Positions 6,191 to 53,679 of a stretch of 64,000 bases of DNA are shown one piece after another. Within the stretch, counting starts at the first letter, position 1; every line of letters begins with the position of its first letter. Source of the stretch: Octopus vulgaris (lineage: Eukaryota); assembly GCA_951406725.2 (NCBI GenBank), contig OX597820.1, forward strand, positions 71,362,001 to 71,426,000, read 5' to 3'. Under the pieces are notes generated by a model, which made no database searches, was not told where the DNA came from, and saw nothing but the letters and a program-made list of their open reading frames with translations. A program made the translations under genes and the position numbers.

Positions 6191-6257
6191 ATCTGTTATT
6201 AAAGTTACTGGCAATTATATACCAGCTTGTTCAAACTGATGCTTACAGAACTAAAAG
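6191..6257 (+). CDS. SPO11: SPO11 internal exon (67 nt, winged-helix/5Y-CAP region)
   Basis: Acceptor tttattacAG|, donor AAG|GTattt. The only open frame reads xLLLKLLAIIYQLVQTDAYRTK(R), which matches the SPO11 segment LILKILSMIYKLVQSNTYATKR recalled from the vertebrate protein. Ends in phase 2, matching the next exon. Confidence 0.93.
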
Positions 6258-9260: not shown

Positions 9261-9438
9261 CTTCAAAAGGATATGCATGCAACAGAAATATATCAATATC
9301 TTGCCAAAGTAATAGATTACTAATCAGAACTAGTGGATGTATCATACATGAAGATAGAAGACAAGAAACACTAAAGTGCTTAGATATCTAGCATAGAGAG
9401 AAAAACTTAACATTCATGGAAAATCCTCGCTTGCACCA

Positions 9439-14441: not shown

Positions 14442-14550
14442 GGATATCTACTATCAGAATGTTAACTGCTTTAAGACACAATCTGTTCTTGACACTTTAC
14501 TTAACAATATATCCCACTTACTGGAAGTGCCTCGTTGGGATCTACATGTT
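14442..14550 (+). CDS. SPO11: SPO11 internal exon (109 nt) with the catalytic tyrosine motif RDIYY
   Basis: Acceptor ttctattgcAG|, donor GTT|GTAAGT. Translation (R)DIYYQNVNCFKTQSVLDTLLNNISHLLEVPRWDLHV. The TKRDIYY motif is completed across the splice, with YY codons at 14449-14454. Confidence 0.97.
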
Positions 14551-43949: not shown

Positions 43950-44036
43950 CTCTCAACATCTAAAGGTTGCATTGCTGGAGATTTACAATTCCATGATGCA
44001 AATGGAAATTTTATATGTTGCAAGAATACAAAATCT
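43950..44036 (+). CDS. SPO11: SPO11 internal exon (87 nt)
   Basis: Acceptor taattttAG|, donor TCT|GTAAGT, phase 0-0. Translation LSTSKGCIAGDLQFHDANGNFICCKNTKS matches the conserved LSTSKGLIAG motif. Confidence 0.96.
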
Positions 44037-48780: not shown

Positions 48781-49303
48781 GTATCCTTATAGTCACAAAA
48801 CTTTAGTTCAACCTATAATACATACATACAAATCAAAATTTTGTTTCAAAGTTTGGTGGGATTGAACTAGGCTCTTCTTGGGATCTAAGATGAGGGCTAT
48901 AGTGGAAGACTCTTACCAACTTCAGGTAACAAGCTATGAAATTCTTACAATCTCTCAGTTTCCTGTAATTCAGACCACCTCATGTTCCTAGCAGACAAAA
49001 CTGAAATGGCTTTGCTCTGGAGGATAACAAGAGAGATGCAGTGGAACAGCCACTCTGATTCATAGGACTTGCACTTGCAGATATCCATCTCTGCCCTGAT
49101 AGCAGTGAGCAGAGATATGGTCTGGGACTGAGTACACTGGAGGTCTCCACTGCCACAAGCTCAACCATAAATCTGTCAGTGAGTAACCAATACTTTGACA
49201 GTTTGCTCTTCTTGGCCTGACAAGCAAACTTATACCATTTTCCAAATCTGAAAAATTCTGAAACCTTCCTAGTTCCAAGGATTTCTGGGAAGAGATTGTA
49301 TAT

Positions 49304-52123: not shown

Positions 52124-52160
52124 GGGATCATGTTGCCATCAAATGTTATGGAAATTAACA
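52124..52160 (+). CDS. SPO11: SPO11 small internal exon (37 nt)
   Basis: Acceptor atttttcttttAG|. Translation GIMLPSNVMEIN plus one nt (A), compare vertebrate AVAVPSNIQGIR. Followed by the U12-type donor GTATCCTTT. Confidence 0.9.
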
Positions 52161-52169
52161 GTATCCTTT
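52161..52169 (+). promoter_or_regulatory. U12-type (minor spliceosome) 5' splice site GTATCCTTT
   Basis: Exact match to the RTATCCTTT U11-binding consensus, immediately after a coding exon. Confidence 0.9.
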
Positions 52170-52532
52170 ATATAGCAAAAGTTCAGAAACTTAATTAATT
52201 GATGCATAAAAGAGTAGTGAAAAAACAAATGAAATTAGGAAAAATATACCATACTTTCTGGCTTGCAAGTTCATTAAGTGTAAAGTGCAAACATTCAAGC
52301 GTTGTCACTATCTTTCCAAATCCTGCTGTATGTCACATGGAAGTTTTAATCTTCAAAAGTTGTTGTGTTGTATAAAGTCAATCTATCTTTTTTGGCTCTA
52401 AATTTTGATCTGAAAATATTCAACTTGTATGCAAGAAAATACAGTCAACAGGAATAGTTACCAATTATTGAATAGAAAAATCAGTGTAGAATATGCACAA
52501 AAGTACTTTCATTTTTATTGTATTTAGTATAA

Positions 52533-52750
52533 TCATCATAATCGTCATCGTTTAACGTCCACTTTCCATGCTGGCATGGGTTGGATGGTTTGACTGAGGG
52601 CTGGCAAGCCAGAAGGCTGCACCAGGCTCCAATCTGATCTGACAAAGTTCCTACAGCTGGATGCCCTTCCTAATGCCAACCACTGTGAGAGTGTAGCAGG
52701 TGCTTTTTACATGCAACCAGCATGAGGGCCAGTCAGGCGGTACTGGCAAA
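52533..52750 (-). mobile_element. RTE-tail retroposon copy inside the U12 intron
   Basis: (CAT)n followed by cgtttaacgtccactttccatgctggcatggg. Confidence 0.85.
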
Positions 52751-53550
52751 ACTCCTCAATAATTTCTGAGATTGCCTTTAGCCTAAAAATTTATTGGAGA
52801 GGTATACTGACAATTGAGTGAACAATAGTACTTGATTATCTTATTGCTCTTGGAGAGATGAAGGACAACTATTTGAACTCAAAAGGTAGAAGATTAAAAC
52901 TTATTAATATGGTATTCCACTGGTGCTTTTCTCTTTCTGTTCTTGCGAAATTTAGTGGAAACTTAATAAAAGCAAAATATCATTAAATTTGAGAACCTAA
53001 ATATTTGATAGGTGCAAAATTAATTTAATTATTAATAGCTGAGATCTGACTAGTGTTTCGAAAGGATATTACTAAACTAGGTGCCTGACTTAATGGAAAA
53101 CAACAAGTATTACTTGTTGCATCTTTATGCAGATGAGTTGCACCTAATCACATGCTTGCCTACGTTTTAAAATGTTAATAATCTCCAGCTACTTTTTCTC
53201 AGCATCTTGTTAGAGTTGAGTGATTCCAGGTGAACTATCATATGCAATCAATCCATTCAATCCTAATTCTAAGTTGCCAAAAAGGTACTCATTGGGTCTA
53301 ATTTCATAAGCAAAACATAACTCACAATGATATGTCTCCATATATTTATTTATCCAATAACAGTTACCTTTCCTTATTTTCATTTCATGTCTATGATATT
53401 TTGCCTTATGAAATGAATTAGTAAAACAGGCTTTAAAGCACTATTTCCCAGAGAATGAATAAATAAATAAAAAATAAAATTCCATCTTTATTTTGTGATT
53501 TTGTTCAGTCTAATTTGTCATTTCATATAGTTGCAATTCTGAAAATTTTA

Positions 53551-53562
53551 TTTATCCTTAAT
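53551..53562 (+). promoter_or_regulatory. U12-type branch site TTTATCCTTAAT
   Basis: Matches the TCCTTAAY consensus. The presumed branch A (53561) is 11 nt from the inferred 3' splice site and no polypyrimidine tract follows. Confidence 0.85.
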
Positions 53563-53572
53563 GCATGTTTAT

Positions 53573-53679
53573 ACATATATACTCATGCCCTATTTATTTT
53601 AGTAGTAGAAAAGGATGCTACATTTCAACATCTGTTAAATTATGGAATCAGTGAACAATTTCCTCATATAATTATAACC
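53573..53679 (+). CDS. SPO11: SPO11 internal exon (107 nt, start of TOPRIM domain, VEKDATF motif); 5' boundary non-canonical
   Basis: Translation (N)IYTHALFILVVEKDATFQHLLNYGISEQFPHIIIT, donor ACC|GTAAGT. Conserved TOPRIM Glu codon at 53608-53610. The start is inferred from frame, gap-free homology at the junction and a U12 branch site. Confidence 0.92.

What the first reader, a model, noticed from the sequence alone, without database searches (positions are those of the whole stretch)
52161..53572. SPO11 intron is U12-type and appears to have non-canonical GT-AT ends
Seen: donor GTATCCTTT, branch site TTTATCCTTAAT (53551-62), and no AG anywhere between the branch site and 53600. The only nearby junction that keeps frame and gap-free homology (N-I-Y-T-H-A-L-F versus vertebrate N-L-V-T-D-A-K-F) puts the intron end at ...GTTTAT (AT at 53571-72), 11 nt after the branch A. 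Known: the minor spliceosome picks its 3' site largely by distance from the branch point and tolerates unusual terminal dinucleotides, but GT-AT is rare. Inference: expression of the meiotic DSB enzyme may be rate-limited by this intron. It is also by far the shortest intron here (1.4 kb versus 8-29 kb). Standard annotators would probably mis-model this junction.
Basis: partly seen in the sequence, partly recalled or inferred. Interest (0 to 1): 0.8.

Follow-up and report, generated by a model that had tools for sequence, protein, structure and literature searches.

The report
GT-AT minor intron in octopus SPO11
The octopus gene for SPO11, the enzyme that cuts DNA to start meiosis, has a 1.4-kb intron that transcript data show is removed exactly at ends that read GT and AT in this assembly instead of the usual GT and AG, likely by the minor spliceosome; this ending is rare but already catalogued, and vertebrates carry the same intron with an ordinary ending.

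Summary
Real, but a known kind. The window holds the middle of single-copy octopus SPO11. Intron 52161-53572 starts GTATCCTTT, has a U12-type branch motif whose A lies 11 nt before the end, and ends AT. Contigs of 3 of 4 presumed RNA runs laid (three studies, two species labels) join 52160 to 53573; none used the AG rivals. The junction gives the spacing of 112 of 120 homologues. It is the orthologue of the catalogued human/mouse SPO11 minor intron. Fish-like and bird-like contigs have GT-AG here; a clam-like contig ends AC. GT-AT makes up 0.43% (319) of conserved animal minor introns. New points: a 2026 paper calls Spo11 major-intron-only outside chordates, which this contradicts, and one intron shows three different 3' ends. 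Rate limitation is untested. 'Annotators will miss it' is half right: 5 of 6 RefSeq octopus models have the junction, one skips both exons, and one other NCBI model gets it wrong. Base 53572 is unchecked in raw DNA reads. The scan has noted GT-AT minor introns in other genomes and an odd-ended fungal SPO11 intron.

The parts
6191..6257 (+). SPO11 coding exon, 67 nt
   Evidence: tblastn of octopus SPO11 models and AG/GT ends
14442..14550 (+). SPO11 coding exon, 109 nt, covers Pfam TP6A_N positions 17-62
43950..44036 (+). SPO11 coding exon, 87 nt
52124..52160 (+). 37-nt exon upstream of the minor intron; same size in the fish-like and bird-like orthologues; ends CA, not AG
   Evidence: (covered exactly by transcript contigs)
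52161..53572 (+). U12-type intron, 1412 nt, phase 1, GT..AT ends
   Evidence: joint 52160-53573 in 3 of 4 runs; sequence
52161..52169 (+). U12-type 5' splice site GTATCCTTT, identical to the intronic part of the human and mouse SPO11 minor-intron donor
   Evidence: predicted pairing with this genome's U11, -7.3 kcal/mol
53551..53562 (+). U12-type branch-point motif; predicted branch A at 53561 (or 53560)
   Evidence: predicted pairing with this genome's U12, -8.4 kcal/mol; the branch nucleotide is inferred, not mapped
53571..53572 (+). non-canonical AT 3' end, 11 nt after the predicted branch A
53573..53679 (+). 107-nt exon downstream of the minor intron, encodes the VEKDATF motif of the Toprim domain; the next exon lies beyond the window (L001:1513)

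Best explanation
Intron 52161-53572 of octopus SPO11 is spliced out exactly between GT and the AT at 53571-72, likely by the minor (U12-dependent) spliceosome, and is likely the same ancient minor intron that vertebrate SPO11 carries with GT-AG ends. Steps: (1) shown: the junction 52160-53573 occurs in transcript contigs and gives the normal protein; (2) shown: the genome has U11, U12 and U6atac genes; predicted: U11 pairs with donor positions +3 to +9 and U12 with the branch motif; (3) inferred from published work on U12 introns: the 3' site is set mainly by distance from the branch A, so the AT at 11 nt is used because no AG lies nearer than 41 nt, while the AC at 13 nt would make the disfavoured GT-AC pair and shift the frame; (4) inferred: the AT end is a tolerated, probably near-neutral one-base variant of the terminal dinucleotide, perhaps with somewhat lower efficiency. 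When minor splicing fails, the major spliceosome would skip both flanking exons in frame (144 nt, 48 residues including the VEK glutamate), the form modelled as O. sinensis isoform X2.
For: Joint 52160-53573, GT..AT, zero letters fitting both sides, in X15, X16 and X18 (three studies, two organism labels); bin depths equal cover of exactly 52124-52160 and 53573 onwards. The five window exons translate to 135 residues identical to P0004. 112 of 120 homologues have the same 19-residue spacing from P to VEK. Donor identical to human and mouse SPO11 minor-intron donors, and the exon bases before it fit the same phase-1 position. Fish-like L025 and bird-like L026 have a 37-nt exon, GTATCCTTT, a CCTTRAY motif and AG at the same position. 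U11 duplex -7.3 versus 0 to -2.9 kcal/mol for the gene's four other donors in the window. U12, U11, U6atac present. One Toprim and one TP6A_N match in the genome, both exon-sized, so no retrocopy was found that could explain spliced contigs. GT-AT reported as productive for U12 splicing; optimum branch-to-3' distance 11-13 nt and GT-AC disfavoured. Skipping of both flanking exons is the typical result of minor spliceosome loss.
Against: Base 53572 is not verified in raw DNA, and a G there would give an ordinary TAG. The transcript runs are probably from other animals, whose intron ends are unknown. The tool marks the joint 'between: not known' and lists the runs as RNA by guess only; contig depths are low in two runs (2.4, 2.7; 57.4 in X18). 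The U12 duplex energy separates this acceptor only weakly from the gene's U2 acceptors (-8.8 versus -4.3 to -7.4). No experiment shows dependence on U11/U12. A published analysis calls Spo11 a major-intron gene in non-chordates; its supplement could not be read.
Confidence: 0.88

Rival explanations
1. The intron is an ordinary GT-AG U12 intron and T53572 is an assembly error or a private allele of the assembled animal.
For: One change gives a normal TAG acceptor at the right place; vertebrate-like orthologues end in AG; transcript joints cannot see intronic bases; word shares of 0.91-0.95 in DNA runs leave room for a one-base difference.
Against: Inference from priors: GT-AT is 0.43% of conserved animal minor introns, against roughly 3e-5 to 3e-4 for a specific wrong base at assumed error rates of 1e-4 to 1e-3, odds of about 15:1 to 150:1 for a real AT (the assembly's error rate is unknown to me). 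The 3' end of this intron also varies in another animal (AC in L016).
Confidence: 0.06
2. The GT-AT intron is removed by the major (U2-dependent) spliceosome, as a converted intron or like the U2-type GT-AT intron reported for DGCR2.
For: U2-type GT-AT introns exist; the region before the branch motif is T-rich; a 2026 paper classes non-chordate Spo11 as major-intron.
Against: The donor is a full match to the U12 consensus and lacks the AG at -2/-1 that marks 'minor-like' converting introns; the branch motif lies at the U12 optimum distance; there is no AG for U2AF near the site used.
Confidence: 0.04
3. The AT end is kept by selection as a throttle: slow minor splicing, plus in-frame skipping of both flanking exons to a catalytically dead form, limits active SPO11 and so the number of meiotic breaks.
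For: Non-canonical U12 ends often splice less efficiently, and U12 introns have been proposed as rate-limiting. SPO11 appears single-copy. Retention gives a stop after 12 intronic codons. A RefSeq model, P0005, skips both exons.
Against: No retention contigs in the repeat-free parts of the intron, including a run at depth 57 (contigs drop rare forms). Mouse, with a GT donor, already shows cryptic 3' site use at this intron, so imprecision needs no AT. Non-canonical ends switch often between human and mouse (14 of 24), which fits drift. Conservation of AT across cephalopods is unknown.
Confidence: 0.12

Closest known systems
Human SPO11 / mouse Spo11 minor intron (342 and 299 nt; Olthof et al. 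2019, PMC6717393, supplement rows; Takemoto et al. 2026, PMC12956336)
   Same: Same donor GTATCCTTT, U12 branch motif, same phase-1 position after the I-x-N/H codons, short relative to neighbours in octopus and the bird-like contig.
   Different: Octopus ends AT and is 1412 nt. The supplement rows seen do not give the mammalian 3' dinucleotide; AG was seen directly only in the fish-like and bird-like contigs. Mammals have an in-frame cryptic acceptor giving a 4-residue-shorter isoform (P0102, P0113, P0121); octopus has no AG within 41 nt of the branch A.
Non-canonical GT-AT U12-type introns (DEADC1, SLC24A6; Sheth et al. 2006, PMC1557818; Larue and Roy 2023, PMC10639083, Table S1: 319 in animals, 0.433%)
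   Same: Same terminal pair, U12 donor and branch motif.
   Different: Different gene; here the orthologous intron is GT-AG in vertebrate-like contigs and ends AC in a clam-like contig.
Skipping of both exons flanking a minor intron (CAT2; Olthof et al. 2021, PMC8034651)
   Same: O. sinensis isoform X2 (P0005) lacks exactly the two exons that flank this intron.
   Different: Only a RefSeq model here; I did not see the transcript support, and the stretch laid was too short to show this joint.

Membership tests
U12-type (minor) intron | Extended 5' splice site RTATCCTT(T) | tested here: met
   GTATCCTTT at 52161; identical to human and mouse SPO11 donors
U12-type (minor) intron | Branch motif of the TCCTTRAY type close to the 3' end (optimum 11-13 nt) | tested here: met
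   TCCTTAAT 53555-62, A53561 is 11 nt from the end; optimum from PMC3584512
U12-type (minor) intron | Complementarity to the organism's own U11 and U12 snRNAs | tested here: met
   U11 -7.3 versus 0 to -2.9 kcal/mol for the other donors; U12 -8.4, but only weakly discriminating (-8.8 versus -4.3 to -7.4)
U12-type (minor) intron | Minor spliceosome snRNA genes in the genome | tested here: met
   U12, U11, U6atac over Rfam cut-offs; U4atac not searched
U12-type (minor) intron | Not 'minor-like' (no AG at -2/-1 of the donor) | tested here: met
   Exon ends CA; criterion from the abstract of PMC11347168
U12-type (minor) intron | Splicing depends on U11/U12/U4atac/U6atac; lariat at the predicted A | not testable with these tools
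   Needs knock-down or lariat sequencing
U12-type (minor) intron | intronIC or MIDB classifier score | not tested
   Classifier not available; simple motif and duplex tests used instead
GT-AT non-canonical subtype | Transcripts are cut exactly after the AT | tested here: met
   Joint 52160-53573 in 3 of 4 runs, no sliding ambiguity
GT-AT non-canonical subtype | The terminal T is the true genomic base | not tested
   No raw DNA reads were seen at 53572; only the assembly and a prior-odds argument
Orthologue of the vertebrate SPO11 minor intron | Same codon position and phase, same upstream exon | tested here: met
   L025 and L026: 37-nt exon, phase 1, exon restarts 2 nt plus 10 codons before VEK, as in the window; human and mouse donor context
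SPO11 / Topo VI-A family | TP6A_N and Toprim domains, homology to Spo11 and Top6A | tested here: met

The most novel reading that the evidence does not exclude
The SPO11 minor intron is older than the split of molluscs and chordates, against a 2026 statement that it is chordate-restricted, and has run through three terminal pairs at one position: GT-AG in vertebrates, AT-AC in clams, GT-AT in octopus. The octopus form would be a living intermediate of the rare switch between the AT-AC and GT-AG subtypes, and its weak end, with in-frame skipping to a form lacking the Toprim glutamate, would set the dose of active SPO11 in meiosis.
Probability: 0.15. Interest if true: 0.6.

Novelty: new member of a known kind. 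Interest (0 to 1): 0.33.

Why it matters
Modest. It corrects a published claim that Spo11 is a minor-intron gene only in chordates, so minor-spliceosome involvement in meiotic break formation probably dates at least to the bilaterian ancestor. It gives one orthologous intron with three different 3' ends (AG, AT, AC), a natural test case for how U12 subtypes interconvert and for distance-based 3' site choice. Practically, it explains a wrong public model of octopus SPO11 that lacks the VEKDATF exon. A regulatory role would matter more but has no support yet.

Tried and rejected
Alternative in-frame acceptors: AG 53530 (adds 14 residues), AT 53566 (5 nt from the branch A, +2), AT 53578 (-2), AG 53602/05/08 (-10 to -12). 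All break the 19-residue spacing of 112 of 120 homologues, and no contig supported them (19 lower-ranked joints were not shown, but the bin depths leave no room for cover of 53532-53572). AC 53574 and AT 53576: frameshifts. An AT donor two bases on (52163) is out of phase. Retrocopy as source of spliced contigs: no full-length family match in the genome (only the best candidates are scored). No listed holder was on record as RNA; 4 of the 8 runs guessed to be RNA were laid, and X19 had no cover of either exon (uninformative). Metagenome pattern scan: 31 of 34 loci were unrelated chance matches and were dropped; the pattern required a branch motif, so it cannot show how often the intron is absent or U2-type. 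The donor of the clam-like L016 is not on its contig. The U12 duplex energy was a weak discriminator. Literature searches found no paper describing an octopus or mollusc SPO11 minor intron or a GT-AT SPO11 intron; most subscription papers and the MIDB and WtMTA databases were not searchable, and the supplement of PMC12956336 could not be read.

Full report
Observation. The sequence shows GTATCCTTT at 52161, the branch motif at 53551-62 and AT at 53571-72. AG dinucleotides near the 3' end finish at 53530 and 53602, none between. The two motifs are not enriched in the window as a whole (TCCTTRAY 12 seen, 11.7 expected; RTATCCTT 12 seen, 6.2 expected, 3 of 100 shuffles reach it), so the case rests on placement: about 4e-4 for ATCCTT after a given GT and 1e-3 for the branch motif in a 12-position band.

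Gene. The exon after the intron matches Top6A. The genome search gave one Toprim match just beyond the window and one TP6A_N match inside it. All 4 hits to the next exon are octopus SPO11. Window exons are 6191-6257, 14442-14550, 43950-44036, 52124-52160 and 53573-53679; they give 135 residues identical to O. sinensis P0004. Introns are 8184, 29399, 8087, 1412 and 23069 nt; the first three are GT-AG.

Is it spliced there? I laid 4 of the 8 runs guessed to be RNA. In X15, X16 (organism A, two studies) and X18 (organism E, a third study) a contig joins 52160 to 53573, ends GT..AT, with no letter fitting both sides; X19 covers neither exon. Depths are 2.4, 2.7 and 57.4. Bin depths equal cover of just the two exons (for example 2.4 x 16/57 = 0.67 in bin 53532-53588), so no contig uses AG 53530, and none starts at 53603. 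The repeat-free intron bins are empty. Caveats: one contig per run, contigs drop rare forms, the joint is flagged 'between: not known', and RNA status is a guess. Protein evidence agrees: 112 of 120 homologues have 19 residues from the conserved P to VEK, as this junction gives; the 8 others are P0003, P0005, three 4-residue-shorter mammalian isoforms, two +4 models and one +1.

Machinery. The genome has U12 (125 bits), U11 (5 matches over cut-off) and U6atac. Predicted U11 pairing is -7.3 kcal/mol for this donor against 0 to -2.9 for the gene's four other donors in the window. U12 pairing with the branch motif is -8.4, but over the last 45 nt this acceptor (-8.8) is only slightly ahead of the U2 acceptors (-4.3 to -7.4). 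The exon ends CA, so it lacks the -2/-1 AG of 'minor-like' introns (PMC11347168, passages and supplement rows).

Orthologues. A pattern scan of metagenome contigs gave 34 loci, of which 3 are SPO11. L025 (fish-like by best hits) has a 167-nt and L026 (bird-like) a 222-nt intron after a 37-nt exon, both GTATCCTTT to AG, branch A 10 and 8 nt from the end. L016 (best hits clams) has TCCTTAAC and ends AC, 9 nt from the branch A, at the same codon position; its donor is off the contig. The Mya arenaria model P0012 reads N-I-L-Y at this point, which would be read-through of an AT-type donor; this is a hint only. Human and mouse SPO11 minor introns (342, 299 nt) have the same donor and exon context, and mouse shows cryptic 3' site use (CAT7, values 0.13-0.41 in the last three tissue columns; column heads not shown) (PMC6717393, supplement rows only; CAT7 defined). 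So the intron is shared by molluscs and vertebrates and its 3' end varies. The direction of change is unresolved.

Mechanism. Shown: junction, frame, motifs, snRNA genes. Inferred: U11/U12 recognition and 3' site choice by distance. A review gives an optimum of 11-13 nt, says non-canonical ends splice often with reduced efficiency and that GT-AC is disfavoured (PMC3584512, passages); Sheth et al. report GT-AT as productive (PMC1557818, passages and tables). This fits use of AT at 11 nt over AC at 13 nt, which would shift the frame. Retention stops translation after 12 intronic codons. P0005 skips both flanking exons in frame, the pattern that rises when U11 is lost (PMC8034651, passages). That form lacks the VEK glutamate, a Toprim metal-binding residue (recalled, not from a call).

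Annotation. P0004, P0124, P0122, P0123 and P0002, 5 of the 6 RefSeq octopus models seen, carry N-N-I-Y-T across the junction; the sixth is the skip form P0005. P0003, which lies on a contig of the same length as the window's, replaces the 107-nt exon by a stretch of the next intron (L043, about 9363) and loses VEKDATF.

What is known. GT-AT U12 introns: 4 human, 3 mouse in Sheth et al.; 319, or 0.433% of conserved animal minor introns, in Larue and Roy, whose species list includes O. sinensis and O. bimaculoides (PMC10639083, section 30 and supplement rows; the preprint was seen as passages). The octopus intron may thus already sit in their database, which I could not search. Takemoto et al. 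2026 state that Spo11 is a minor-intron gene in chordates and a major-intron gene in non-chordate lineages (PMC12956336, passages, outline and section 26; supplement unreadable); their source set includes O. bimaculoides, though I could not see whether its Spo11 was scored. The present data contradict that statement for octopus and probably clams. Searches listed no paper on a mollusc SPO11 minor intron. Earlier notes of this scan report GT-AT minor introns in other genes and genomes and an AT-AA intron at what is said to be the same spot in a fungal SPO11; I did not test these.

Open point. Base 53572 has not been seen in raw DNA reads; G would make an ordinary TAG. Prior odds favour a real AT by roughly 15:1 to 150:1 for assumed error rates of 1e-3 to 1e-4.

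Verdict. A real, spliced GT-AT intron, very probably U12-type (0.88). New member of a known, rare kind. The rate-limiting idea has no support yet (0.12). Interest 0.33, mainly for extending the SPO11 minor intron beyond chordates and for three 3' ends at one orthologous site.

Noticed in passing
window 52530-52750: A high-copy, SINE-like repeat sits inside the minor intron; thousands of transcript contigs from other loci lay on it. A weaker repeat lies at about 52280-52450.
   Followed up: no
G000, 43 places; example L045:1501-1616: 43 U6atac matches among 46 candidates scored, scattered over many contigs, probably retroposed copies. Already tabulated for O. bimaculoides (45 high-confidence copies, PMC11347168 Table S7).
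   Followed up: partly
window 48781-48788 (+): A second GTATCCTT inside the upstream major intron, preceded by AAG; probably chance.
   Followed up: no
P0005; window exons 52124-52160 and 53573-53679: O. sinensis isoform X2 skips both exons around the minor intron in frame and loses the VEK motif; candidate inactive isoform.
   Followed up: partly
L016:226-275: Clam-like SPO11 orthologue with a U12 branch motif and an AC 3' end at the same position; donor not on the contig.
   Followed up: partly
P0102, P0113, P0121: Mouse, stoat and chinchilla isoforms lack 4 residues right after this intron, consistent with a cryptic acceptor 12 nt downstream.
   Followed up: partly
L043:about 9363-9418 (window-equivalent about 73363): Intronic stretch used as a false exon by model P0003 in place of the real 107-nt exon.
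   Followed up: yes
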